A DNA stretch of 64,000 nt. Origin: Octopus vulgaris. Its lineage: Eukaryota. The stretch is from contig OX597830.1 of NCBI GenBank assembly GCA_951406725.2, positions 37,882,001 to 37,946,000 on the forward strand. The letters run 5' to 3'. This document shows positions 4,668 to 62,530 of this stretch, piece after piece. The position numbers and the translations under genes were made by a program. A model generated the notes under the pieces. It had not been told where the DNA came from. It searched no databases and worked only from the letters and a program-made list of their open reading frames with translations. Position 1 is the stretch's first letter. The number at the start of each line of letters is the position of its first letter.

Positions 4668-4755
<88 letters not shown>

Positions 4756-4834
4756 ATGTACTGTAAGTTTCGAGGGAATAATTGATAAGTTTAAGCACCT
4801 GTATATGCCAGATAGTGACAAAAGTGAGAGAATT

Positions 4835-5170
4835 TATCAAACATAAATTGAAAACAGAACACAAAGGATATCGCGGAATAGTGGCTGAATAGTGGTACAG
4901 TATGGGCAGATTTTTGAAATCTAATGAACTTTTATACAAATATACCTTTTCAAAGAGATACGATAAACCTATTATAATGGGTAATACTACGTGTACTTTT
5001 TTTGTTTTGTGATGTAATCTTTGGACTAACAATTTTTGCGGCTGAAGATGAGCTTTAAACCATTTTTTATATGAATAATATACGTATGCTGATGTAATAA
5101 CAAGGTTGTTTATAAAGCTTGAAACACGTGTACTGCGATATCCTTTGTGTTCTGTTTTTCAATTTATGTT

Positions 5171-5175
<5 letters not shown>
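4835..5175. repeat. 340-bp unit bounded by ~41-bp inverted repeats
   Basis: tatcaaacataaattgaaaacagaacacaaaggatatcgc (4835-4874) is the reverse complement of 5135-5175 apart from one indel. Confidence 0.9.
5038..5136 (+). ncRNA. Minimal type-I hammerhead ribozyme motif
   Basis: Stem I GCGG/CUGC; core CUGAAGA (5042-5048); stem II GAGCUUUA/UAAAGCUU; GAAA (5121-5124); palindromic stem III ACACGUGU; GUA cleavage triplet ending at 5132. Confidence 0.7.
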
Positions 5176-5216
<41 letters not shown>

Positions 5217-5257
5217 TTAAGTAAATAAATATATATTACGAAGTGGCAGAGTATTTA

Positions 5258-5325
<68 letters not shown>

Positions 5326-5751: not shown

Positions 5752-5808
<57 letters not shown>

Positions 5809-5821
5809 TACACACACACAT

Positions 5822-6217
5822 GAGTGGCTGTGTGGTAAGTAGCTTGCTAACCAACCACATGGTCCCGGGTTCAGTCCCACTGCGTGGCATCTTGGGCAAG
5901 TGTCTTCTGCTATAGCCCCGGGCCGACCAATGCCTTGTGAGTGGATTTGGTAGACGGAAACTGAAAGAAGCTTGTCGTATATATGTATATATATATGTAT
6001 GTATGTATGTGTGTGTTTGTGTGTCTGCTGTGTTTGTCCCCCTAGCATTGCTTGACAACCGATGCTGGTGTGTTTACGTCCCCGTAACTTAGCGGTTCGG
6101 CAAAAGAGACCGATAGATTAAGTACTGGGCTTACAAAGAATAAGTCCCGGGGTCGAGTTGCTCGACTAAAGGCGGTGCTCCAGCATGGCCGCAGTCAAAA
6201 TGACTGAAACAAGTAAA
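5822..6217 (+). mobile_element. tRNA-derived SINE family A (internal microsatellite, CR1-like tail), near-complete copy
   Basis: A-box-like tggctgtgtggtaag, B-box-like gggttcagtccc, central (TA/TG)n, tail ggcggtgctccagcatggccgcagtcaaaatgactgaaac; about 10 copies in the window. Confidence 0.88.
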
Positions 6218-6320
6218 TGAAAATAAAGAAAGAAATATATCAAAATAGAGAGAGAAGGAGAGAGACAGAGACAGAAAATAAGATACATGCCTATATACAA
6301 ATATATGTATATATATATGC

Positions 6321-6421
<101 letters not shown>

Positions 6422-6709: not shown

Positions 6710-8048
6710 TATATCATGAGAGACAATGCGTTAGAAATATGAGAAACTATTTAAGGCAAATTGGCGTAAGTACGAAGATACATTATGTCGCATGTATTCA
6801 GAGATATAATCGTTACCATCTTCGGCCTCATTGAACTCACAACTAGAATCGGATTTAATAAAATTAATAATTGACATGACATACATTCCTAAATAATCAA
6901 ATATTTCGAACTGTAGCAATCTTTCCTAATTTTTATCGAGCGTTATGCAGACTTAGAACTGCAATTTCTAATAGAAAAAAAAATTCACGTTTGCCTTGGA
7001 ACGCATGGAAATTCTAGTATAATGATTTTTGATTTCATCGTTTTGTAGGAACATTTATACATACAGATATGGTGTAGTGAACTCACAATAAGTATTTGGC
7101 TACATAATGTTTGATTTCAGATAACCCAATCTCGAGACTTGTGCATTTGTGTGCGCGTGTTTTTGTGTGTTTGTATAATATGTATTTATATGCACGCATA
7201 CATGGGTATTTTTTTAAGTATATATACTGATGTGCATCTAAGTATAGCAAGGAAGAAAGTGGGAAAGAGGAGGAGTGATCGGGCGAGAGAGTGTATGTAT
7301 ATAATCAATGTTGGCATACGACCATATCTGATTCAAAATGGCGCAATATATAGCCGATAAATCGTTCTTTGAAGATATTCACATGTATTCGCATGCTTCG
7401 TTATTGTAGATTTGGTATGTGGGATTTCCAGTCACTTTGCTAAATCTCTTGGAAGCGCGAACTTCTCTCGAGGCTGTGTCCCGTCGTATTCATAAACAAG
7501 TTAGTTAGACACATCTGAATTTTTTTAAATGCGGCCACTGACCCCAAAAGAAAAAGCAGTTAAATTCCCATCAAATAGCACTCTACTGTAGAAAGCTATA
7601 ATGGATAATGTTATAGTAAATGACCTATATACTGTCTCAATCAAACTTCACGACTGTAATTCATTTGGTTATAGCGTTTGCTAATCAGCTTTCACCAATT
7701 TACTATAAGAGTCTCCCATCGTCACCACGTCTGATACCGTCTACATCATGACTGATTAAGAATTAGGGACTGTCTGTGTCTGTTTTTCGTCCTTTTCTGT
7801 AATCAATATTCGTTTTACAGTTTTCCTGTGCATTCATCATACGTTGTCTATTTTTCGTTTGCACATCTACTATAAAAATGTTCAATTATGCATGTATGAG
7901 TGTATATGTGTATGTGTGTGGATACATACATACATACATACATACGTACATACATATATACATACATATACATATACATATATATATATATATATGAAAA
8001 AACAAGTCAAAAATAGAAAATGCTAAAATAATTTTATAGTGAACATTT

Positions 8049-8086
8049 CAGTACCGGTTTCGGTCATTTTGAGACCTTTTCAACTG
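8049..8086 (-). ncRNA. Minimal hammerhead motif, U3-A8 variant (copy 1)
   Basis: CAG-UUGAAAA-GGUC-ucaaaau-GACC-GAAA-CCGGUA-CUG; ACCGGU palindrome in stem III. Confidence 0.62.
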
Positions 8087-8095
8087 TATATATTA

Positions 8096-8720
8096 CTCTT
8101 TTACACGTTTCAGTCATTTGACTGCGGCCATGTTGGAACATCGCCTTTATGCGACGAATTGGACCCCAAGATTCTTTCTTTATAAGCCTTGTACTTATTC
8201 TATCGCTAACTGTTGCCGAACCGCTAAGTTACACGGACATAGACACACCAGCATCGGTGGTTAAGCAATGATAGGGGGGACAAACATATACACAAAGGCA
8301 CAAACACACATAAATATATATACATACATATCTATGTGGCGGGCTTCTTACAGCTTCGGGCTACCAAAGCCACTCACAAGATTTTGTTTGTCCCGAGGCT
8401 ATAGTACAAGACACTTGGCCCCGGAACCATGGGATTGGTAAGCAAGCATCTTATTTACTCCTCACAAGGGGCTAAACATAGAGGGGACAAACAAGCTGAG
8501 ACAAATGGATTAAATTGATTACGTTGTCCCCAGCACGGAACTGGTACTTAATTTATCGTTCCCGAAAGGATGAAAGGCAAAAATCGACCTCGGCGGAATT
8601 TGAACTTAGAACGTAACGGCAGACGAAAGACCGCTAAGCATTTCGCCCGGCATGGTAACGTTCCTGCCAGCTCGCGCCTTGTGTGGTAAGCAAGTTTTTA
8701 CCACACAACCAGGCCTGTGC
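8096..8720 (-). mobile_element. SINE family A, interrupted by a SINE B insertion
   Basis: Reverse-complement match to 5822-6217; head split at 8447-8683. Confidence 0.85.
8453..8680 (-). mobile_element. SINE family B nested in SINE A
   Basis: Matches 2622-2850; flanked by duplicated tggtaagcaag (8436-8446 and 8684-8694). Confidence 0.88.
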
Positions 8721-9166: not shown

Positions 9167-10448
9167 TATTGTGTTGGCTATGTTACTCCGTTTTTTAAAA
9201 TTTGAAATTTATTGCGTTTTTAAATTTTGGACTCTATGTTTTGGAGAATTCTGTTTTTGAATCATTTTGAAATTCATTGTGTCTTTTTTTTTCTTGTTAA
9301 TTTTAGTTAATTTTTGTTTTATATCAGATCATTAAAATGTAATTTCAAGTTAAGAAGAACGAGCATTTTCGACACCTCGTTATAAGGTTATAAGGCCGCA
9401 AAAGCGGCTCGCGATATTTGTGCTGTGTATGGAGAGAGTTCCATAGCTGAAAGAACCGCTCATGATTGGTATGCCAAGTTCAAATATAGAAATTTGGGCC
9501 TCAAAGCCTCACCCCCATTCTGGCCGTCCAGTTGAGTTCAATCAAGAACGATTAAACTAAATGTTGCATGAAAATTCTCGTCAAACAACGAGGGAACTGG
9601 CAGAGAAAATGGAATGCTACCACACTGCTATAGTGAAGCATCTTCACTCGATGGGAAAGGTTCAGAAGTATGGAGCATGGGTTCCGCATGCTTTAAGTGA
9701 CAACAACAAAAATCAATGAGCCACAATATTCGTTTGTTTGCTTACTAGTTACCGCTCAACTCAGGGACACGAGCAACGAGTTATTTACAGAATCGGTACT
9801 AGCGACGAAAAATGGTGCCTGTACATCAATATGGAGCAACGTAAGGAATGGTTTAGTCTCTGTAAAGAAACCATACCGCACATGAAACAAGATCTTCAGC
9901 CGCGTAAAACAATGTTGTACGTATGGTGAGACTGGGAAGGGATTATCCATTACGAATTGCTTGAACGGAACCAAACGATCAACGCGGAACTCTATGTTCA
10001 ACAGATGGAACGACTCAACACGGCTATTCAAGAGAAAAGGCCTAAACAACAGTATGGAGATCTGCTGCACGACCACGCCCGCCCTCATATCGCCAATATG
10101 AGTAAGGAAGTCATTTAAACGTATGGCTGGGAAGTGCTGCCGCACCCGCCGTACTCTCATGATTTTGCACTAACGGATTTCCACCTCTTTCGATCTCTTT
10201 CAAATGCTAATCGCGGAGTTTCGTTCAATACTGATGCAGAATTGAGAGCTTGGTTGGATTAATTTTTCGAGTAGAAATCGGGTGATTTCTGCCAACGAGG
10301 TATTGAAATCTTGGGAAGAAAACATTAGGAAGAAGTTGTAAACAACAAGGGCGAATACATTATTGATTAATTATTTGTTATGTTTTATTAAACCTTTTAA
10401 AAAATTTAAATATACAAAAGCGGCGGGAACTTAGTTGCTAACCTAATA
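9167..10448 (+). mobile_element. Full-length but defective mariner DNA transposon (~1.28 kb)
   Basis: Degenerate TIRs (tattgtgttggcta... / ...ttagttgctaacctaata) flanked by TA; transposase remnant inside. Confidence 0.9.
9337..10370 (+). pseudogene. Mariner transposase pseudogene
   Basis: Reads AARDICAVYG..., SGRP, WVPHAL, TSDEKW, LLHDHARPH, HPPYSHDFALTDFHLF (WVPHEL, DD34D and YSPDLAP motifs) with several stops and frameshifts. Confidence 0.92.
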
Positions 10449-10727
10449 TAGATATATAAATATATGTGCATATTAGTTACGAGAGCCATTACAATCAAGG
10501 TATATCAACATATAAAACGCTATTTCAGATATGCGTTCATGGTTCATAAAAAAATATTTCCATAGTTTTCAGATGCAAGGGATAATATTCCTTTTGTATG
10601 AGATCCTGGTAGCAGTTAGCAGGTAGTAGTAGTAGTACTAATGATATGAATTGTTGGTTTTGATTTTTGAAGCAGTAGTAGTAGCTGACAAAGGAGGAGA
10701 CGAAGAAGTAGAATACTCTCTCTTTTT

Positions 10728-11008
10728 CTCTTTTACTTGTTTCAGTCATTTGACTGCGGCCATGCTGGAGCACCGCCTTTAATCGAGCAACTCGACCCCG
10801 GGACTTATTCTTTTGTAAGCCCAGTACTTATTCTATCGGTCTCTTTTGCCGAACCGCCAAGTAACGGGGAAATAAACACACCAGCATCGGCTGTCAAGCA
10901 ATGCTAGGGGGACAGACACACAAACATACACACATACATATATATATATATACATATATACGACAGGCTTCTTTCAGTTTCCGTCTACCAAAGCCACTCC
11001 TGCGCCTA
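10728..11008 (-). mobile_element. SINE family A with most of the tRNA head deleted
   Basis: Tail and body match 5822-6217; ctaccaaa joined directly to gccactcctgcgcct. Confidence 0.85.
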
Positions 11009-12321: not shown

Positions 12322-13138
12322 TATGCATATGAATATGTATGCGTTTTTTTTTTTTCGTATAGCGACGAACAATTTATATATATACAGTACTCTGCAAAAA
12401 CGGTATTTCCGTTACTGTTTGCACAACATTTAGCTTAACCGCAACTTCCACTCTCAATGTTAGGAGTGTGGTGAAATAATGATTGGTATTCTAAAATCTA
12501 TCAGTCACATACTGTGATACAGAGAGTATAAAAGTCAAGGGATGGAAAACAATAGACGTCAAGAACCAGAGATCACAAGTTGAAGAGACAAAGAGCGACT
12601 CACCCCCCATTAATCCTCCCCTGCGATAAATGGTCTCGACTCCTCTATTCCGCTTTTGGTTTGAGGCTCAATTACTAATTATTCACTACAAATTAAGTGT
12701 TCTGATACGTGTTGATGCCACTACCGCTGACAACTGTACTGAAAAAAAAAGTTTGCAATGTACATTTTTAAAATAAGCGCAAAATTCGACGCTCGCAGGC
12801 AATAACATCCGTTCGAGCGTATGTGTGTGTTTTTTGTGTGTAATCACATTGGTTCCGTTAGCTGATTAGGACTTATTTATCGATTGACTATACAAAACCT
12901 AATGTCAAATAGCATCGGGATTAAATATGGACAAGAAGAAAGGTGCAATCAAATATAAATACTGAAATAATAAACATGCTAGATATTTTCCGACTCTCAG
13001 TACCTATTGACTCGCCTATTGATATTGCACAATATCCTTTGAGCTGTTAACTTCAATTGATATAATATTTCTATATCAAACGCGAGAATATATATATATA
13101 TATGTGTGTGTGTGTATGTGTGTGTGTGTATACATATA

Positions 13139-15905: not shown

Positions 15906-16016
15906 TCTGTAGACACACATATACACACATATCTTATTCTTTTAGTCTCTTAGCAATATCATCTCTAGAGGTGTGGCTATGCTGGGACACCGACAGTACA
16001 CACATGCACATATACA

Positions 16017-16181
16017 TAGGTGTAGGAGTGGCTGTGTTGTAAGAAACTTGCTTCCCAACGGTATAGTCCCGTGTTCGGTCCCACTGCATGATACCTTGGG
16101 CAGGTGTCTTCTGCTATAATCTTGGGACGACCTAAGCCGAGTGAGTGAATTTGGTAGACGGAAACTGAAAGAAACCCGTCG

Positions 16182-16225
<44 letters not shown>

Positions 16226-16227
16226 CG

Positions 16228-16259
<32 letters not shown>

Positions 16260-16452
16260 CTTGTGTGTGTGTATGTGTGTGTATATTTGTGTGTGTGTGA
16301 TGGTGTGTTTACGTCCACGTAACTTAGCAGTTCGGCAAAAGAGACCGACACAATAAGTGGTAGACTCACAAAGAATAAGTCCTGGCGTTGATTTGTTCGA
16401 CTAAAGACAGTGCTCCAACATGGCCGCAGTCAAATGACTGAAGCAAGTAAAA
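16017..16452 (+). mobile_element. SINE family A
   Basis: Colinear match to 5822-6217. Confidence 0.85.
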
Positions 16453-17019
16453 AAGTAAGAAAGAATAGACATACAATCACACACAAACACACAAACACAC
16501 AAACACACACACACACACACACACACACGTATATATATGCTTCATGCTCACCACATATATAGAAACTAATACTTCTCATTGGTTTAGTCTTTTATTCTTT
16601 TATACGTTTCAGCCCTGAGCTTGTGGCTATAATCAGAGTAATGTTCGAAATATTTTGTATTCCATCTTAGTTGGCTACTTTTCTAATTTACTCATTTTTT
16701 GCATTGCTACTCGGTTAAATACAACTGGAAGCAATGCAGTTAATTCCAGGAAGCTCAGTACATTCATACCGCAAGTGTTAAGCATACCCAGGCGTATATT
16801 TAAGTAGGAGTGTATAAAAAGTTAACACCAACGACCTATTTTATCCTCGACTCTACCATTACCAAGATTTCTCCGCCTTCATCTGCGTAGATTGTTAATG
16901 AACAACCTTAAAAATAAGTAATTAATATCACGGCCTTTGATCGTTTCTTTTTTCTTGTGTCGCTCCTTCTCCTCATTCTTCTATTGTTTCCCCTGCTCTT
17001 CCTCTTTCACTTTCTCCTT

Positions 17020-21676: not shown

Positions 21677-21752
<76 letters not shown>

Positions 21753-21754
<2 letters not shown>

Positions 21755-21954
21755 TTAATCCAAACATAAAAACACAGAGAGAAAACACAACAACGCGAGG
21801 ACGTGGAACAAATATAGTATTATTGGACGCTCAGGAAGGAAGGGAAGAAGGAGGGTGTAACGTTTCGAGCGGAGCTCTTAGTCGGAAACATAAGAGAAGG
21901 AAAGATCCAGAAAAGGCTAGACAGGGGATAAAAAATCGCCAACGGTACACACGC

Positions 21955-21957
<3 letters not shown>
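21753..21957 (-). mobile_element. ~200-bp Penelope-like terminal repeat with a hammerhead-like motif, inserted in (TA)n
   Basis: Near-identical to 52272-52466; contains gtttccgactaagagctccgctcgaaacgttac. Confidence 0.65.
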
Positions 21958-21988
<31 letters not shown>

Positions 21989-22550
21989 TAGATAGATAGA
22001 TATGGGGGGAGGTTAAACAAAGATGGGTTAACAGTGGTTCACGACGTACGCTTCTGTGCATCGCATCAGCTTTAAATTGTCGAGTTCATATTCATATAGC
22101 ATTATGTATCACTACTCTTAATAATTACCACGTATTGGGATAGCGCTCAATCACGTAGAATTTCTGTGTATATTCACCGGAATTTTGCGAGTTTCCCCAA
22201 CTACCTAATGCAACGCTGATTCGCCTAGAGATTATTATTTTCGTCAGATGAGTGAATGAGGCGACATGAAATGAATTGGTTTGCTCAAAAACACAAAAAA
22301 TCACAACAGAAACACAAAAGCACAACAAAAATATAACAGGAATCTAAAACAGAATCTTCTGACAGCAAATTCAAGCACTAACTATTAGGCTACACTCCTC
22401 CACAGGCGCACTTACTTATATAGATAAGTAGATACACACACATATACACACACGCCTATGTATACATATGTAGATATCTATACATACATATATATATATA
22501 AATATATACATATATATATACAAATATACATATGTATATATATATACACA

Positions 22551-27414: not shown

Positions 27415-27610
27415 AGGTGGCGTCATAGCAGAAATGTTAGCACGCCGGGCAAAATGCTTAGCGGCCTTTCGTCTGCCATTACGTTCTGAGTTCAAATTCC
27501 TCCGAGGTCGACTTTGCTTTTCATCCTTTCAGGGTTGATAAATTAAGTACCAGTTGCGTACTGGAGTCCATCTAATCGACGGACACCCTCCCCAAAAGTT
27601 TCGGACCTAG
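27415..27610 (+). mobile_element. SINE family B (variant tail)
   Basis: Head and core match 2622-2850; tail diverges after aatcgac. Confidence 0.8.
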
Positions 27611-27999: not shown

Positions 28000-28325
28000 T
28001 TGGCTATGTTGTAAGAAACTCGTTTACCAACCACATGGTTTGGGGTTCAGTCCCTCTGCGTGTCACTTTGTCCAAATGACTTCTGCTATAGCCTCGGACC
28101 GGCCAATATATAAATGTGTGTATATGTTTTTATGTTTGTTTCTCCGCCCATCCCATCGCTTAACAACTGATGGTAGTGTATTTACGACCCCGTAAACTTA
28201 GCAGTTCGGCAAAAAGGACTGATAGTGTAAGTACTTGGATTGCAAATAGTAAGCCCCGGGATCGATTTGTTCGACTAAAAGCGGTGCGCTAGCATGGCCG
28301 CAGTCAAATCACTGAAACAAATAAA
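28000..28325 (+). mobile_element. SINE family A, diverged
   Basis: Head tggctatgttgtaag...ggttcagtccc and tail gcggtgcgctagcatggccgcagtcaaatcactgaaac. Confidence 0.8.
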
Positions 28326-28381
28326 CGAAAAAAATATATGCATATAGAGAGAGTGGGGTATATAGCTAGATAGACAGACAA

Positions 28382-28454
<73 letters not shown>

Positions 28455-29028
28455 CAGATAGATAGATAGAAAGATAGATAAATAGATAGATAGATAGATG
28501 GATGGATAAATAGATGGATAGATGGATTGATTGATTAATTGATTGAATTGATTGTTAGATCGTTGGTAAAAGAAACGGAGATAAGTCAATAAATAAATCA
28601 TCATGCATCCATGTCATATTCGATTATGACAACCAAGAAGAAATGAACTCATCTATTGCAATGTTCCAAAATAATTCTATTCCGTAGTTTCGTCAAAATA
28701 TAGCACAATTTCAGAATGTTCTTCCTTTTCTTTCCGATTTTCTCTGTCACACACACGCACACAAGCACTCATGTACACAGGCACACATGCATAGAAACAC
28801 GCACAGACTGCTTTCCCTTTTGTTATCTTTTGGAGATGCTGCTGTACAATTTACAAACACATTCAAACTTTTTACCTTGTTTTGGTCCATATCCAATGTG
28901 TACAAACACACTCAATATGATTATCTTGTTTTGGTAAACTTCTAATGAAAACGAAGCGGACCAGAATCTGGAGAAGACGAAAGGAAAAATAGCTACCCAA
29001 ATCGATGAAGAGCAGTTCTCCTCATCAT

Positions 29029-43717: not shown

Positions 43718-43782
<65 letters not shown>

Positions 43783-43783
<1 letters not shown>

Positions 43784-43945
43784 TCTTGCATTTCTCTCTG
43801 TCACCTTGAGTGTGGCCAAGCTGGAACACCGCCTCTAGTCGAACAAATCGACACCAGGACTTGTTATTTTTAAGCCTGGTACTTAATCTATCGGTCACTT
43901 TAGCCGAACCGCTTAGTTACGGGGACGTAAACACACCAACATCTG
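43783..43945 (-). mobile_element. SINE family A, 3' fragment
   Basis: ggccaagctggaacaccgcc...gccgaaccgcttagttacggggacgtaaacacacca. Confidence 0.75.
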
Positions 43946-43993
43946 TATATGTATATGTATAAGTATATATACATATATATATAAATATACATT

Positions 43994-44032
<39 letters not shown>

Positions 44033-44337
44033 GTATGTATGTATGTATGTATACACAGAGTGAGAAGGGGAGAGATAACCGACTTTTGTTAATCATTGCT
44101 AAAATGCGTACTCAGTACCAGAGTGGCAAGTTTATTTGTGTTGAGTCAGAATTTCCCCTGAGTGTCGTGTACGAAATAATCCTGTGTACTTACAGCTGGA
44201 ACTAAAGTAGCAACATACGCCCACTTACTCACACACACGCATGCACCCACACACGCATATATACATTTAGACACATACATTTATATACACAATGAGTCGG
44301 AGATAATGAGAAACAGATACACACAAAGGCGCAAACA

Positions 44338-44381
<44 letters not shown>

Positions 44382-44431
44382 CATAATTTCACATACCCGC
44401 ACACAAGCGCTGTATATATATATATATATAT

Positions 44432-44754
<323 letters not shown>

Positions 44755-50337: not shown

Positions 50338-50651
50338 GTTTCTGTGTGTGTGTCTGTGTTTATATAAAGCATTTCCCCCTCCGCAAGCCCATCATAATAT
50401 AGCTTATTGGCTGTGCCTTCATCCATCATTCCAACAGTATGGCCACACCATCTCATTTGGTTTTTCACAATAATGTTGCAAGAATCTCATATTTTTACTA
50501 ATGAAATTTCACAACGAATCAAAATCAATTGTTTACAAAAGAATATAGAACAGTCGGTTTTATGAATCAGTCTGTGTGTGTGTCTGTGTGTGTATATGCA
50601 TATATATGTATATATATATATATATGTGTGTGTGTGAGTGTGTGAGTGTGA

Positions 50652-50805
50652 GTGTGTGTGATAAGTAGCTTGCTTACCAATCACATGGTTCCGGGTTCAG
50701 TCTCACTGCGTGGTACCTTGGGCAAGTGTCTTCTACTATAGCCTCGGGCCGACCAAGGCCTTGTGAGTGGATTTGGTAGAGGGAAACTGAAACAAGCACG
50801 TCGTA
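50652..50805 (+). mobile_element. SINE family A, 5' half
   Basis: Matches 5825-5980. Confidence 0.8.
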
Positions 50806-51649
50806 TATATGTATAAATGTGTGCGTGTGTGTGTGTGTATGTTTTTCTGTCTGTGTTTGTATATGTATATGCACACCCATATATGTGTATATATATATAT
50901 GTACATGTGTGTGTGTGTGTATGTGTGTGTGTATACCTCGCTCTGAAATTTATTATGTATATAGAATTTAAATTAACAAAGCCTAAGAGATAAACGAAAT
51001 TGTTCTGAACATGATATGAAAGCGAAAGAAATATGAGCAAGCTGAAACTAGATCAGTGATGTAAACAAAACACTAATATGTTGTCTATAGATTTATGTTA
51101 TAATGATATTAATGATTTGCTGCTTACAGGAAGAGAAGGTGGATATAGATACAATCTGTAGTGGAAGAGAAGTGTAATGCAATATTTGAGACGTAGTTAC
51201 ACACCTTTGTAAGACAATCAATGCATCGATTAGTATCGAAGCCGGCGGGAGGAAATAAAGACTAAGAAATATAACTGCTGATATTGAAATTAAATGGCTA
51301 AAATTGCATACCCTGGGGGTGTATTAAGTAATACGCACATGCTCGCAAGCGCACGCTCTCGCTCGAGCAAGTGCAAACACATTCTTACAAATCTCTCTCC
51401 TCCCTCTGCCTCTGTATTTCTTTCTTTCTTTCTTTCTTTTTTTCTTTCTTTCTTTCTTTCTATGTATTTATTTATGTATATATATATATATATATATTTC
51501 TTTACTACCCACAAGGGGCTAAACACATGCGTGTGTGTGTGTGTTTGTACGTTTTTATGTGTGTACACATATATGTATAAAATTATGTTTGCATGCATAT
51601 ATATATATATATATGTATGTATGTATGTGTGTGTGTGTGTGAATCTACA

Positions 51650-52190
51650 TACGTAATCTGATCAATAAGTATCCGGACTGTTGCTATAGTAACGAATATG
51701 CAAAGTGAAGCCAATTGGCACAGATTGACCTTAAACTCTTTAGTGCATACACACTCAATTTAAAAAATCTAGATCACTTCTGATGTTTACAGCAGTGCTT
51801 GGATAGTGTGTAGCCTGCGATCGTCGCATTGAATGTGACAGAGTAAGTTGAGCGAACAATCTGCCTCAAATTTTGGGAAAAGGTTGGAGATAATTGTTCA
51901 GGGTCCACGCGGAGTTTTCAAAAAGTTTTCATCGTTCTCGACATAGTCAAAGAGTTCTTGTGCAACTGAAATCCGAGTGTCTTTTTGGTCTGGTGAAAGC
52001 AGTTTGGCAGACACGTGTCTCATACCCAAATATTCAGTGATAATGGACTGAACTGAACCGTAACTAATCCGCACATCCTTTGGTAACTCACGATTTCCCC
52101 TTACAGCTACACGCACAACTGCGATGTTTTCCTCAGTTCCGCCGGTTGCGGGCCTGTCAGAATGTTCGTCAATATCGACATTTTGTCGGC

Positions 52191-52192
<2 letters not shown>
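51650..52192. mobile_element. Rearranged mariner-family remnant (TIR + N-terminus on +, internal transposase segment on -)
   Basis: Mariner-like terminus tacgtaatctgatcaataagtatccggact; + strand VERTICLKF...KVGDNCS; - strand DEHSDRPA...RELPKDVRISYGSVQSIITEYLGMRHVSAKLLS...DENFLKT. Confidence 0.75.
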
Positions 52193-52270
<78 letters not shown>

Positions 52271-52271
52271 A

Positions 52272-52461
52272 TACCGTTGGCTATTTTTTTCCCTCTGTCT
52301 TCCCTTCTCGAAATCTATCCTTCTCCTATGTTTCCGACGAAGAGCTCCGCTCGAAGCGTTCAACCCTCCTTCTTCCCTTGTTTCCTGAGCGTCCAATAAT
52401 ACTATATTTGTTCCACGTCCTCGCGTTGATGTGTTTTTTTTGTGTTTTCTTGTTTGGATTA

Positions 52462-52466
<5 letters not shown>
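52272..52466 (+). mobile_element. Second copy of the ~200-bp Penelope-like terminal repeat
   Basis: gtttccgacgaagagctccgctcgaagcgttcaac at 52330-52364; (TA)n/(TG)n flanks. Confidence 0.65.
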
Positions 52467-52524
<58 letters not shown>

Positions 52525-52992
52525 ATATTTCGGAATGGTCATTTTGCCAGTTTAGCAATAAAAACACACGCACTATATATTTGGTGTTATTTTGCTTCAG
52601 TGATATTTATTTTTACATTAATCTTAATCTTATTTCGGCCAAAGTTATTTCGTCACACTCCTGTGACCGCATCAGTGGTCCTTTGTTTTCTTCTCACTTA
52701 CTTGTGTCTCTCCTTACTAACCGTCAGCCATTTTGTATTTCTATTGTATGTCTTCATTTGCGCATGCTTATATCTCTATGTGCGTCTATGTTTATTTAGT
52801 GTGTGTGGGGGGATGCCTGTAATATTTGTATCTTCTGGTTATATGCATTCTTGTAATTTGTATTTTGTTTTTGTTGTTGTTGCTTTTGTTCTAATTTTGT
52901 TCATGTGTTTACATCCACCCATTATTATCATTACATATGCTTGTATGTATGTATAACAACAATATTAGTAATAATAATAATAAATCTAATCG

Positions 52993-59169: not shown

Positions 59170-62100
59170 GATTGATTGATTGATTGATTCTAGTTTCAGC
59201 TTATGAGCTGTGGCCATGCTGGGGCACCGCCATTTGGTGTTGCTACTTGGTTTCACTTCATGGAGGCTTTCTAGCAACTGCTATTTGGTGCATGAGAGAG
59301 TTCGATGCAGCTGCCCTCATCTGCCCCTCCTGCTGTGAAGTTGGTTCATCTGGGACACCTGACAGGAAGAGATCCAGCTTCATTTTAAAGACATCTGTAT
59401 CCACCCCATGCAGGTCTCTCAGGTTCTTCGGGAGGATATTGAAGAGCTGTGGGCCTCGGAAGCCCAGGCTATCACAGAATCTTGTCCTACATCTTGATGG
59501 CAGGTTTGGAGTCCTAGGCACCACGCAGTGGCGCCCAGTTCTGGCATTTGCGTAACTCTCGATGCCAAAGTTCAGGACACTTCCCTCCAGGATCTTCCAG
59601 ATGTATATTATGGCATATCTTTCCCGCCTACGCTCCAGGGAATATAATTTTAATCTCTTGAGTCTTTCCCAGTAGCTTACATTCTGCATAGAGGCTATCT
59701 TCTTTGTGTAGCTTCGTTGGATCGCCTCAAGTTCTGTGATCAACTTGACACTGGATGGTGACCATAGCTGAGAGCAATAGTCAAAGTGGCTTAGGACAAG
59801 TGTCTTCCAGAGGACCATCATGGTTTCTTGTTCTCTTGTTCTAAAGGTTCTAAGAATCCATCCAGCCAGCCGTCTACATTTCATTGTCAGTTTAGCAACA
59901 TGTACATGAAAGGTCGCGTCATCACTCATGTGAATACCCAGGTCACGCACTGATTGTGCCTCTGGGATTGCAATCCCTCCGGGTCCAGTGTATTCATTGG
60001 GTATTGCATTCAGTTTTGCATGCTGATAGTATAAAGCTTGAAACTTTCCAGCATTGAACTGCATGCTATTCTTTTCAGCCCACTTGTATATTTCGTCCAG
60101 CTCACATTGCAGGTGTTTAGTGTCCTCAGGGTTCTGTATTGCTTGTGAAACTTTTGTATCATCTGCATAACTTGTGATCGTGGCTCTCTGCGTGGCTGAG
60201 GGCATGTCTGAGAGGGCCATTATGAACAGTAGTGGTCCCAGAACAGTGCCCTGCGGAACACCGCTCACTATTTGTGTGTTAATGGAGGTGGCCCCATTGG
60301 CTACTACCACCTGACTTCTATCCTTCAGAAAGTCATGAAGCCATTCTCCCAGTTTTCCAACTATGTTGAGATCACGCAGTTTGTGACATATCATTCCATG
60401 ATCGACTTTATCAAAGGCCTTTGCAAAGTCGAGATATATCACTTCCACATTTGAGTGGTTGAGCAGCCGTTTCAGCACCCAGTCATAGTGTTGTAGGAGC
60501 TGAGTTAAACAGCTTCTCCCTGGTCGGAAACCATGTTGGGTGTCGGGCAGCAAGTCATTCTCTTCAAGGAAGGTGATCAGCTTCCTTCTGACTATTCGTT
60601 CCATGACCTTGCTGATGTGTGAGGTCAGAGAGATAGGTCTATAGTTCTTGGCTTCCGCTCTGCTACCTCCTTTATGAATGGGGCATATTTTACCTTCCTT
60701 CAGTTTTCCTGGAAGTTTGCCAGCTGCAAGGAAGCTCTGAAAGAGGAACTGCAGTGGTCTTGCTAGGACTCTCTTACATGCTTTTAGGAGGATTGCCGGG
60801 AATCCATCGGGGCCAGTAGCTGAGTCTGTTTTCATTTCATCTATAGCCTTGGTTACATCGTCTTCCTTTATATCGATGTAATCTATCGTCGCCGCCTCTG
60901 ATTTTATATCTGCAGTGGTAAAAAAGTCAGTTGGATTGGTGATTTGGAGATGCCCAAGGGGTGGAGTGAAAACACTCTTGAATTGCTCATTCAGTATTTC
61001 ACTTACCCTCATTGGTTTTCCTGTAAGTGTGCCATCCTTTTCAAGGAGTGGCCCTATTCTACAGTGCACTGTAGCTGTTTCTTTGGCATACCTGTAGAAA
61101 GCTCTGGGGTTAGATTTTATGTTTTCTATAGCCCAGGCTTCTTTGTCTGCTCTTTCTTTTTCATGGGAGAGTTGCAGACATTTTTCGATTTCCAACAGTT
61201 TTATTTTTAGGCGGGACTTTTCACTGCTTTCAATCTGTTTGTTTAGGCGATTTGAAAATTTCGTACGCCGTCTCATTAAAATTTTCCTCTCTCTGGGGAT
61301 TTTGTTCTTGTGTACAGTGGCCTTTCTCTCTGGGACACATTTGTAGCATATGGCTTGCATTACAGACATGAATTGTTGAAGTTTCACGTCGATGTCTGGC
61401 GAGGAGAGACATTCAGGCCAGTTTTGTTTGAGGATCTCTTTCTCAATTTGTTTCCAGTTTGCCTTATGGTAGTTCAAGCTGGAAAGATTTTGAGGGTTTC
61501 TTGTAGGCTGCATGTCCGTGCTCTCTTTTGGCCCGTACATGGTCAGCTCTATCATGTTGTGATCCGAGAGTAGTGTCGGTGTCACTTTCACATTATGGAT
61601 GAGATCCATGTCATTTGTGAAGCAGAGATCCAGTGTGTTACCTGCCCTGGTTGGTTGGAGTATTACCTGCTCCATGTACAGGGTGTTGATGAGGTTCAGG
61701 AGGGACCTCGCCTGTCCTCGTTCACATCTTGTCATTCCTGGGAGAGAAAGGCCCTCGGGCCATCTGACATTGGGCAGATTGAAGTCTCCCATAAGAAGCA
61801 CACCTATGTGTTGTTCTAATGTGGTTAGAATTTCTTCTATTTTTATAAGGCAGTCTTCGAACTTGCCCACATGGCTTGGGGCATCTGGAGGGCGATATGT
61901 AGCACACACAACTACATCAAGTTGCCTAATATGTACAATTAGTGTGTCACACACCGAGTTTGAGTATGACAAGAGGACCTGGGGTGTGAGGTCCTCACGG
62001 ATGTACATAGCAACACCTCCATGACTCCTTTCTTTCCTGTCGGTCCGTAGTACAGCATACTGTGGTATGTGTAACTCCGCATCTGCTATGTCCGGTTTCA

Positions 62101-62274
62101 GGTGCGTTTCTGTAAGTGCTATGCATAAGGCTTGATTGCATGCAACAAAGTCTCTCAGGAACGGGATCTTTGTCCTGTTACTGAGTGTTTGCAGTCCTCT
62201 GATGTTCAGTAGGAGTATCGAGGTGAGGTGTACGTTGTTGCCGGCGGTGTCCATCCTGTGGACACCGCCGGCAA
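59170..62274 (-). mobile_element. 5'-truncated CR1-group LINE copy (ORF2, short 3' UTR, (AATC)n tail)
   Basis: ORF2 as above; short 3' UTR with a CAGCT-CATA-AGCTG stem-loop, ending in (AATC)5 at 59170-59189; no ORF1 upstream; GC content clearly above the flanks. Confidence 0.93.
59258..62254 (-). CDS. LINE ORF2 (apurinic endonuclease + reverse transcriptase), CR1-group non-LTR retrotransposon, uninterrupted 998 aa
   Basis: APE motifs LLLNIRGL, IALTETHL, GGVAMY, GDFNLP, PTRAGNTLDL, SDHNMI; RT motifs NYRPISLTS, QHGFRPGRSC, YLDFAKAFDKV, GVPQGTVLGPLLF, YADD, RDLGI; CR1-type C-terminus SYWERLKRLKLYSLERRRER. No stops or frameshifts. Confidence 0.97.
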   Translation of the reverse strand: MDTAGNNVHLTSILLLNIRGLQTLSNRTKIPFLRDFVACNQALCIALTETHLKPDIADAELHIPQYAVLRTDRKERSHGGVAMYIREDLTPQVLLSYSNSVCDTLIVHIRQLDVVVCATYRPPDAPSHVGKFEDCLIKIEEILTTLEQHIGVLLMGDFNLPNVRWPEGLSLPGMTRCERGQARSLLNLINTLYMEQVILQPTRAGNTLDLCFTNDMDLIHNVKVTPTLLSDHNMIELTMYGPKESTDMQPTRNPQNLSSLNYHKANWKQIEKEILKQNWPECLSSPDIDVKLQQFMSVMQAICYKCVPERKATVHKNKIPRERKILMRRRTKFSNRLNKQIESSEKSRLKIKLLEIEKCLQLSHEKERADKEAWAIENIKSNPRAFYRYAKETATVHCRIGPLLEKDGTLTGKPMRVSEILNEQFKSVFTPPLGHLQITNPTDFFTTADIKSEAATIDYIDIKEDDVTKAIDEMKTDSATGPDGFPAILLKACKRVLARPLQFLFQSFLAAGKLPGKLKEGKICPIHKGGSRAEAKNYRPISLTSHISKVMERIVRRKLITFLEENDLLPDTQHGFRPGRSCLTQLLQHYDWVLKRLLNHSNVEVIYLDFAKAFDKVDHGMICHKLRDLNIVGKLGEWLHDFLKDRSQVVVANGATSINTQIVSGVPQGTVLGPLLFIMALSDMPSATQRATITSYADDTKVSQAIQNPEDTKHLQCELDEIYKWAEKNSMQFNAGKFQALYYQHAKLNAIPNEYTGPGGIAIPEAQSVRDLGIHMSDDATFHVHVAKLTMKCRRLAGWILRTFRTREQETMMVLWKTLVLSHFDYCSQLWSPSSVKLITELEAIQRSYTKKIASMQNVSYWERLKRLKLYSLERRRERYAIIYIWKILEGSVLNFGIESYANARTGRHCVVPRTPNLPSRCRTRFCDSLGFRGPQLFNILPKNLRDLHGVDTDVFKMKLDLFLSGVPDEPTSQQEGQMRAAASNSLMHQIAVARKPP

Positions 62275-62276
62275 TA

Positions 62277-62530
62277 TAATAAACGCGCTCTTTGAAAGCC
62301 TAGCCAGGCTCATGGGCCCGGTTTCCCGGTTTCAATGGCGTATGTCTTCCCCAGCTCGACGGGATTCCAGTCCATCGCAGCGTTACTCATTTTTGCCAGC
62401 TGAGTGGACTGGAGCATCGTGTAATGAAGTGTTTTGCTCAAGAACACAACGCGTCGCCCGGTCCAGAAATCGAAACCACAATCTTACGATCATGATGCTG
62501 ACATCCTAACTACTAAACCACGCGCCTCCA

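What the first reader, a model, noticed from the sequence alone, without database searches (positions are those of the whole stretch)
4835..5175. Hammerhead cassette whose inverted terminal copy ends at the predicted self-cleavage site
Seen: a complete type-I hammerhead pattern at 5038-5136 (CUGAAGA core, 8-bp stem II, GAAA, palindromic ACACGUGU stem III, GUA site). The sequence 3' of the predicted cut (5133-5175) is duplicated in inverted form at 4835-4876, and the similarity stops at the base matching the cleavage position. Known: minimal hammerheads with palindromic stem III occur in the terminal repeats of Penelope-like elements and are proposed to act as dimers. Inference: a small non-coding ribozyme-processed retroelement whose end is defined by self-cleavage.
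Basis: partly seen in the sequence, partly recalled or inferred. Interest (0 to 1): 0.8.

Follow-up and report, generated by a model that had tools for sequence, protein, structure and literature searches.

The report
Penelope retroelement end-piece with inverted arm
This is likely a short, dead end-piece of a Penelope-like jumping gene sitting in an AT repeat, with a predicted self-cutting RNA motif and an inverted second copy that stops at the predicted cut site, which is true of this copy but of at most one of seven other inverted copies seen, so it is a mostly ordinary insertion of a known kind.

Summary
A minimal type I hammerhead lies at 5036-5138 (0 such hits in 100 shuffles), and an inverted copy of the sequence 3' of the predicted cut (5132|5133) ends at 4876, within 1 nt of the cut. 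The boundaries are wrong: contigs from four public runs show a multi-copy repeat whose inverted arm runs about 110 nt (4766-4876), not 42. The family has two 3' ends, about 43 and 110 nt past the cut, both at (TA)n. That spacing, the (TA)n target and the ribozyme form match Hydra-clade Penelope-like elements; inverted 5'-truncated arms and optional tails are textbook for these elements. Self-cleavage does not define the family's ends: of 14 inner ends at 7 other inverted junctions, 1 (geometry ambiguous) lies at the cut, 7 lie upstream of it and 6 downstream. Run-off on a cleaved RNA remains possible for this copy (about 0.35). No ORF partner was recovered, and cleavage was not tested. The scan noted the same coincidence before in another genome (e1-9850483). 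Verdict: new member of a known kind.

The parts
4672..4748 (.). Left (TA)n tract, likely one half of the target microsatellite
   Evidence: (TA)n is the listed target of nearly all Hydra-clade PLEs
4766..4876 (-). Inverted arm, about 110 nt: element sequence from the first base after the cut (4876) through the first 3' end (about 4835) and on through a roughly 65-nt tail; outer end between 4766 and 4776
   Evidence: 4832-4874 matches 5135-5178; deep contig cover of 4776-4834 in all four runs, five opposite-strand joints that read 5141-5159 on into 4830-4866, loose ends before 4776 in 22 (X1), 14 (X9) and 3 (X3) contigs, X4 pieces aligned from 4768
4877..4883 (+). 7-nt filler at the head-to-head junction, a copy of 4888-4894; likely templated during end joining
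   Evidence: 4876-4884 equals 4887-4895; table 7: the family has other letters upstream of 4884
4884..5175 (+). Forward body: non-coding 3' terminal repeat region of the element, ending about 43 nt after the cut in (TA)n
   Evidence: cover in all four runs; loose ends into (TA)n: X4 before 4835 in 9 contigs, X9 behind 5167 in 14; no Pfam match in two frames tried
5036..5138 (+). Minimal type I hammerhead motif; predicted cut between 5132 and 5133
5124..5131 (+). 8-nt palindrome, predicted intermolecular helix III of a dimer
   Evidence: self-duplex -10.3 kcal/mol
5173..5211 (.). Right (TA)n tract, likely the other half of the target microsatellite

Best explanation
The stretch 4766-5175 is likely a short insertion of a Penelope-like retroelement, probably of Hydra-clade type, made of two 5'-truncated copies of the element's hammerhead-bearing 3' end joined head to head inside a (TA)n tract. 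Inferred steps: the element's endonuclease nicks (TA)n on both strands; each nick primes a cDNA at one of two internal start sites (about 43 and about 110 nt past the ribozyme cut); one cDNA runs about 290 nt, to near the likely 5' end of the RNA, and the other stops after about 110 nt at the predicted cut; the two cDNA ends are joined with a 7-nt templated filler. The stop at the cut is read as a 5' truncation at a spot that is at most mildly favoured, not as a fixed end of the family. Shown: the anatomy, the multi-copy nature, the two 3' ends and the scatter of other junctions. Not shown: the protein partner, transcription, cleavage, and the order of events.
For: Anatomy. Repeat family: 684, 406, 855 and 34 contigs laid from four runs of three organisms; 20 of 24 listed runs hold part of the stretch, four organism labels. 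Two 3' ends next to (TA)n (table 7). In Craig 2021 File S2 many Hydra-clade hammerheads have T/T or G/T at the base of stem II and a 3-4 bp near-palindromic stem III; here nearly all depth in X1 and X9 lacks T5049, leaving G/T (16449 of 16496; 69688 of 70565), and 6 X4 contigs read T/T. The consensus 3' ends of 24 Hydra families lie 30-48 nt (10 of 24) or 97-153 nt (10 of 24) past the cut. Inverted 5'-truncated copies and a one-sided tail are the described PLE layout. Two internal start sites for reverse transcription explain the tail in vitro. Motifs in opposite orientation 100-700 bp apart and single truncated motifs are already reported. Of 14 inner ends at 7 other junctions, 7 are upstream of the cut and 6 downstream.
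Against: The 55-nt loop II is much longer than in the listed Hydra motifs (3-10 nt) and the tail (about 65 nt) is longer than the usual 30-40 nt. The end at the cut is exact to 1 nt, which chance gives for a single end with P about 0.01-0.04, and one other junction (X4 4833/4877) may start at the same place. Twin priming is my inference; Arkhipova 2013 proposes self-priming for such junctions.
Confidence: 0.72

Rival explanations
1. Same element and same insertion route, but the inverted arm ends at 4876 because its RNA template had been cleaved by the hammerhead and reverse transcriptase ran off the new 5' end; the forward copy came from an uncleaved RNA.
For: End within 1 nt of the predicted cut; single-end chance about 0.01-0.04. 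A possible second case in another organism (X4 joint 4833/4877). The family keeps a perfect stem I (C at 5134 in 190354 of 193512 depth in X1), and none of the 40 substitution rows shown falls in the core or stems II and III (77 rows hidden). The Anolis PLE hammerhead cleaves when the PLE protein is bound.
Against: This copy was picked because of the coincidence. 13 of 14 other inner ends are elsewhere, and P(at least 1 of 14 at the cut) is 0.16-0.44. No loose-end pile at 5133 or 4877 among the 24 rows shown (179 hidden; short overlaps may be missed). In vitro, uncleaved RNA is the dominant template and no RNA-seq reads ended at the cut in Anolis. A polymerase stall at the folded core would give a similar position.
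Confidence: 0.35
2. A non-autonomous, PLE-derived short element of about 300-370 nt (SINE-like or retrozyme-like) with its own promoter, mobilised in trans; the window holds one damaged copy with an inverted partner.
For: The family seems to have a 5' limit about 11 nt upstream of 4884 at an initiator-like TCACT (5 contigs in X4, 8 in X9; agreement only 0.68-0.71 further out; the same motif is noted in rotifer pLTRs). Three other junctions also start their forward side at 4884. No coding signal in the body (variant positions not biased to one codon position, counted by hand). Animal retrozymes are proposed to derive from pLTRs.
Against: No tandem array or head-to-tail joint through the cut among the 13 joints listed. 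An autonomous PLE is transcribed from an internal promoter in its upstream repeat, so copies running from an internal start site to that RNA 5' end would look the same. The reference ends at 4884, which can pull nearby joints onto that position.
Confidence: 0.25
3. The inverted arm is a later rearrangement (fold-back or template switch during DNA repair at a (TA)n break) or an assembly artefact, unrelated to retrotransposition.
For: (TA)n tracts are fragile and self-complementary (general knowledge); the junction holds a templated filler typical of repair.
Against: The arm carries about 65 nt of family sequence absent from the forward copy and keeps C at the 5134-equivalent base, so it was not simply copied from the present forward copy. 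Its outer end matches the family's second 3' end. A contig in X1 covers 4776-4886 with 4 differences, though only 10 letters lie right of the junction and X1 may be the window's own source.
Confidence: 0.05

Closest known systems
Hydra-clade Penelope-like elements (Craig et al. 2021, PMC8557442)
   Same: (TA)n target; hammerhead near the 3' end with T/T or G/T at the base of stem II and a short near-palindromic stem III; 3' ends about 40 or about 115 nt past the cut.
   Different: No ORF recovered, so the RWK, DKT and CxCX5C protein features are untested; loop II is 55 nt against 3-10 nt; sequence differs from Hydra-1_Obim and from the Naiad consensus sequences as held.
Minimal hammerheads in metazoan PLE pseudo-LTRs (Cervera and De la Pena 2014, PMC4209133)
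   Same: Type I, long helix II (8 bp), short helix I, extra base between A9 and 10.1 in this copy, palindromic helix III, weak monomer fold.
   Different: G-U rather than the conserved G10.1-C11.1 pair; long AT-rich loop II; the extra base is absent from most family copies in two of the three organisms.
Canonical PLE insertion layout with inverted 5'-truncated copy and optional tail (Arkhipova 2013, PMC3846280; Craig 2021; Frangieh 2024, PMC11167929)
   Same: Head-to-head inverted copy, tail on one end only, two 3' ends, initiator-like motif near the 5' limit.
   Different: No ORF in the insert; tail about 65 nt; inner end of the arm at the ribozyme cut, which I did not find described.
Animal non-LTR retrozymes (Cervera and De la Pena 2020, PMC7229834; Li et al. 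2026, bioRxiv 10.64898/2026.07.22.740005)
   Same: Non-coding, about 300 nt, type I hammerhead, AT-rich, PLE-related.
   Different: Retrozymes are head-to-tail tandem repeats; here one hammerhead, an inverted arm, and no tandem joint among the 13 joints listed.

Membership tests
Type I hammerhead ribozyme (minimal, PLE type) | Core CUGANGA ... GAA ... UH with helices I and II | tested here: met
   0 hits in 100 shuffles
Type I hammerhead ribozyme (minimal, PLE type) | Palindromic helix III able to pair between two copies | tested here: met
   8-nt palindrome, duplex -10.3 kcal/mol
Type I hammerhead ribozyme (minimal, PLE type) | G10.1-C11.1 pair at the base of helix II | tested here: not met
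   G-U here and U-U in 6 X4 contigs; the same variants are listed among Hydra-clade motifs
Type I hammerhead ribozyme (minimal, PLE type) | Covariation in helices I and II across copies | tested here: inconclusive
   Only per-site variant tables: 5134 C restores a G-C pair; no paired changes among the 40 rows shown, 77 hidden; no alignment of copies available
Type I hammerhead ribozyme (minimal, PLE type) | Self-cleavage at the UH site | not testable with these tools
   needs a bench assay
Penelope-like element (EN+) | Hammerhead near the 3' end of a dispersed multi-copy repeat | tested here: met
Penelope-like element (EN+) | Inverted 5'-truncated copy and optional one-sided tail | tested here: met
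   this copy plus 7 other inverted junctions; two 3' ends
Penelope-like element (EN+) | ORF with telomerase-like RT and GIY-YIG endonuclease | not testable with these tools
   No genome held; no such ORF in the insert; collection scans gave no family loci
Hydra clade of PLEs | (TA)n insertion target | tested here: met
   both flanks and loose ends of other copies
Hydra clade of PLEs | Protein features (RWK, DKT, CxCX5C linker, no CCHH) and phylogenetic placement | not testable with these tools
   no protein recovered; (TA)n targeting is shared with Naiad, so the clade is a best guess
Non-LTR retrozyme | Head-to-tail tandem repeats with a hammerhead in each unit | tested here: not met
   one motif in the window; no tandem joint among 13 joints, though contigs drop and break repeats
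Non-LTR retrozyme | Abundant monomer circular RNA | not testable with these tools
   no run on record as RNA among holders; contigs cannot show ends or circles

The most novel reading that the evidence does not exclude
The inner end of the inverted arm is a genomic footprint of hammerhead cleavage in vivo: in the PLE ribonucleoprotein one RNA is cleaved and one is not, twin-primed cDNAs run off at the cut and at the transcript start, and a single-base peak of junctions at the cut across the genome would give the first in vivo read-out of PLE ribozyme activity.
Probability: 0.27. Interest if true: 0.68.

Novelty: new member of a known kind. Interest (0 to 1): 0.3.

Why it matters
The role of the hammerhead in Penelope-like elements is open: it cleaves poorly, is dispensable for insertion in vitro, and no RNA reads ended at the cut in Anolis. 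If junctions in a high-copy family peaked at the cut, genomic copies would record cleavage inside the cell and the question could be tested from assemblies alone. The present data do not show such a peak. What is new is modest: a family not found in the one PLE sequence set I could search, with Hydra-type ribozyme and end spacing and an unusually long loop II.

Tried and rejected
Whole-genome copy collection: no genome held. Rfam: no match at gathering threshold in the window and no hammerhead at E up to 10 in 4700-5300. Free folding of 5030-5145: not the ribozyme fold, z 0.70; stem II pairs have probability about 0.2, and the fold with ribozyme helices enforced is -13.8 against -16.0 kcal/mol. 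17-nt pattern scans: 0 hits in viral contigs; 29 hits in metagenomes, all rejected as chance because none extends beyond 27 nt or has matching stems. Other copies in the window: none; a weak match near 13023-13061 has no ribozyme upstream. Coding potential: no Pfam match for the 168-aa minus-strand frame or the 39-aa plus-strand frame. Identity with published octopus PLE consensus sequences: 0 hits for 8 short motifs in the Craig 2021 supplement; motifs can be split by line breaks and long runs are cut, so this is not proof. Expression: no RNA holder listed; X3 is only guessed to be RNA and no listed piece has 31 letters on both sides of the cut. Depth steps across the cut (table 2) were not used, because contig depth is not copy number. 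Joints dropped before the count: 5 opposite-strand joints read as ordinary colinear copies and 1 internal deletion (4941/5020), leaving 7 of 13. Lunse et al. 2017 could not be read. Earlier-findings look-ups by sequence and by place returned nothing.

Full report
1. What is in the sequence. The window is AT-rich (GC 0.29-0.45) and dense in microsatellites, as in an animal genome; my impression that it is a cephalopod is recalled and was not tested. At 5036-5138 on the plus strand lies a complete type I hammerhead pattern: stem I 5036-5041/5133-5138, core 5042-5048, one extra T at 5049, stem II 5050-5057/5113-5120, a 55-nt loop II, GAA 5121-5123, the palindrome ACACGTGT 5124-5131 and A5132, with the predicted cut at 5132|5133. 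It is the only hit of my descriptor in the window, and 100 dinucleotide shuffles gave none. Rfam does not recognise it. As a monomer it folds poorly (stem II probability about 0.2; -13.8 kcal/mol with the ribozyme helices enforced against -16.0 free), while the palindrome pairs with itself at -10.3 kcal/mol. This fits the dimer model but does not prove activity.

The sequence 3' of the cut is repeated in inverted form: 44 columns, 95.5% identity, E 1e-13. On the inner side the match ends at G4876, the complement of C5133. A 7-nt filler follows (4877-4883); 4876-4884 is a direct repeat of 4887-4895, so the filler was likely copied from just ahead during end joining, and the arm's end is fixed to within 1 nt.

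2. The family. Of 24 listed runs, 20 hold part of the stretch, under four organism labels. I laid four of them on 4765-5180: X1 (organism A, 684 contigs), X4 (B, 406), X9 (D, 855) and X3 (A, guessed RNA, 34). Three things follow. First, 4776-4834 is not flank. It is deeply covered in all four runs, and five opposite-strand joints read from 5141-5159 on into 4830-4866, so it is the element's continuation beyond the point where the right copy stops. The inverted arm is about 110 nt (outer end 4766-4776). Second, the family has two 3' ends: about 43 nt past the cut, running into (TA)n (9 contigs in X4, 14 in X9), and about 110-115 nt past it (22, 14 and 3 contigs in X1, X9 and X3 continue about 12 shared letters and then become TA-rich). 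The insert sits between (TA)n tracts at 4672-4748 and 5173-5211. Third, the forward body matches the family from 4884; other copies go on for about 11 shared letters containing TCACT and then disagree (5 contigs in X4, 8 in X9, agreement 0.68-0.71), which may mark the RNA's 5' end. The window copy is slightly decayed: 5134 is C in 190354 of 193512 depth in X1, which gives a full G-C stem I, and T5049 is absent in 16449 of 16496 (X1) and 69688 of 70565 (X9). None of the 40 substitution rows shown falls in the core or in stems II and III; 77 rows are hidden. No coding signal was found.

3. Do arms end at the cut? Table 5 lists 13 joints. I set aside five colinear ones and one internal deletion, leaving 7 head-to-head junctions with 14 inner ends. 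Counting the first base after the cut as +1, they lie at -249, -249, -249, -123, -80, -27, -23, 0, +8, +9, +14, +19, +45 and +49. One end is at the cut (X4 4833/4877); the tool does not give its geometry, and I chose the more plausible of two readings. Seven ends lie upstream, so those copies were made from uncleaved RNA, and six lie downstream. Four of these (+8 to +19) sit in or near the GATATC palindrome at +5 to +10, which could favour joining by microhomology. Under a uniform null the chance of at least one of 14 at the cut is 0.16-0.44, and the chance for one given end is 0.01-0.04; the window copy itself was selected for the coincidence and cannot be counted. None of the 24 loose-end rows shown is at 5133 or 4877, but 179 rows are hidden and junction contigs with short overlaps may be missed. 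The sample is small and biased toward junctions with both sides on the reference. It excludes the cut as the fixed end of the family, but not a minor peak there. Unchecked notes from this scan on other genomes point the same way (e1-9850483, mildly favoured; e1-9958889, ends at the outer edge of the motif, not the cut); I treat them as leads only.

4. Mechanism. Most likely (0.72) the insert is a product of a Penelope-like element (PLE). Inferred: nicks on both strands of (TA)n prime two cDNAs at the two internal start sites; one runs about 290 nt to near the RNA's 5' end, the other about 110 nt to the cut position; their ends are joined head to head with a templated filler. Frangieh 2024 shows cleavage and extension of both strands and two internal start sites that explain the tail; twin priming for this insert is my extension, and Arkhipova 2013 offers self-priming instead. 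For the stop at the cut I favour ordinary truncation at a spot at most mildly favoured, with run-off on a cleaved RNA at about 0.35 for this copy. A stall at the folded core would look alike. A non-autonomous derivative (0.25) overlaps with this reading and cannot be separated without the genome. A later rearrangement or artefact is unlikely (0.05), since the arm holds family sequence that the forward copy lacks.

5. Comparison with what is known. Minimal hammerheads with long helix II and palindromic helix III are standard in metazoan PLE terminal repeats, mostly as single motifs from truncated copies and sometimes as opposite-strand pairs 100-700 bp apart (Cervera and De la Pena 2014). Inverted 5'-truncated copies and a one-sided tail are the typical PLE layout. 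The closest clade is Hydra: (TA)n targets, T/T or G/T at the base of stem II, short near-palindromic stem III, and 3' ends 30-48 nt (10 of 24 families) or 97-153 nt (10 of 24) past the cut, with the other four at 63, 70, 88 and 355. Differences are the 55-nt loop II, the roughly 65-nt tail and the missing ORF, so membership of the clade is not established. It is not Hydra-1_Obim, whose motif differs, and 8 short motifs were absent from that supplement as held. It is not a retrozyme array. I found no paper describing inverted arms that end at the cut (searches; open-access library only), and Frangieh found no RNA reads ending there and that uncleaved RNA is the main template in vitro.

6. What I read. 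Frangieh 2024 (PMC11167929): parts 1-2 of 4. Cervera 2014 (PMC4209133): outline and parts 1-2 of 4. Craig 2021 (PMC8557442): passages, section 11, three supplement searches and supplement part 2 of 59. Li 2026 (bioRxiv): parts 1-3 of 5, supplements not seen. Arkhipova 2013 (PMC3846280), Goubert 2022 (PMC8969392), Cervera 2020 (PMC7229834), the 2019 ribozyme review (PMC6765202) and the giant squid genome paper (PMC6962438): passages only. Schostak 2008 (PMC2377424): passages and section 15. Lunse 2017: not held, known only through the review. Figures and unseen supplements, notably Fig. S2 of Frangieh and Repbase or Dfam libraries, could already hold this family or this junction pattern.

7. 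Verdict. Observation confirmed, boundaries corrected, interpretation partly supported. New member of a known kind, interest 0.3. The bold reading, a genomic footprint of in vivo ribozyme cleavage, has probability about 0.27 and would deserve about 0.68; a single-base histogram of junctions in the host assembly would settle it.

Noticed in passing
window 59258-62299 (-): Open 1013-aa frame with AP endonuclease and RVT_1 domains: an apparently intact ORF2 of a LINE retrotransposon.
   Followed up: partly
window 4884 and about 11 nt upstream in the family: The forward side starts at 4884 in the window copy and in 3 of 7 other junctions; the family has an initiator-like TCACT just upstream. Possible transcript start, though the reference edge may cause part of the pile-up.
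   Followed up: partly
window 5049: Near-identical contigs in X1 (5019-5132) and X3 (4984-5142) are one base shorter than the window, and about 99% of depth in X1 and X9 lacks T5049, so this base may be a private allele or an assembly error.
   Followed up: partly
window 5137-5142 and 4867-4872: GATATC palindrome just 3' of the cut; two other junctions have one arm ending inside it (+8, +9) and the other at +14 and +19, a possible microhomology hot spot.
   Followed up: partly
window 4795-4830 (-) and 5024-5041 (+): A pyrimidine tract ending in ACAG|G in the tail resembles a splice acceptor, and ACTAAC upstream of stem I resembles a branch point; Penelope has a 5' UTR intron ending at helix I. 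Seen by eye only.
   Followed up: no
window 5794-6413, 7903-8420, 10717-10999, 15998-16465, 28106-28523, 43749-44053, 50649-50860: A dispersed repeat of about 250-300 nt with many copies in the window, SINE-like; a second family at 2602-2864, 8456-8682, 27428-27580, 44413-44659.
   Followed up: no
window 21689-22003 and 52205-52528: Two 85% identical copies, in opposite orientation, of a roughly 320-nt segment flanked by (TA)n; may be another microsatellite-targeting element.
   Followed up: no
window 9756-10169 (-) and 51898-52314 (-): Short frames that look by eye like mariner transposase remnants (recalled resemblance); no Pfam match at E 0.1.
   Followed up: partly
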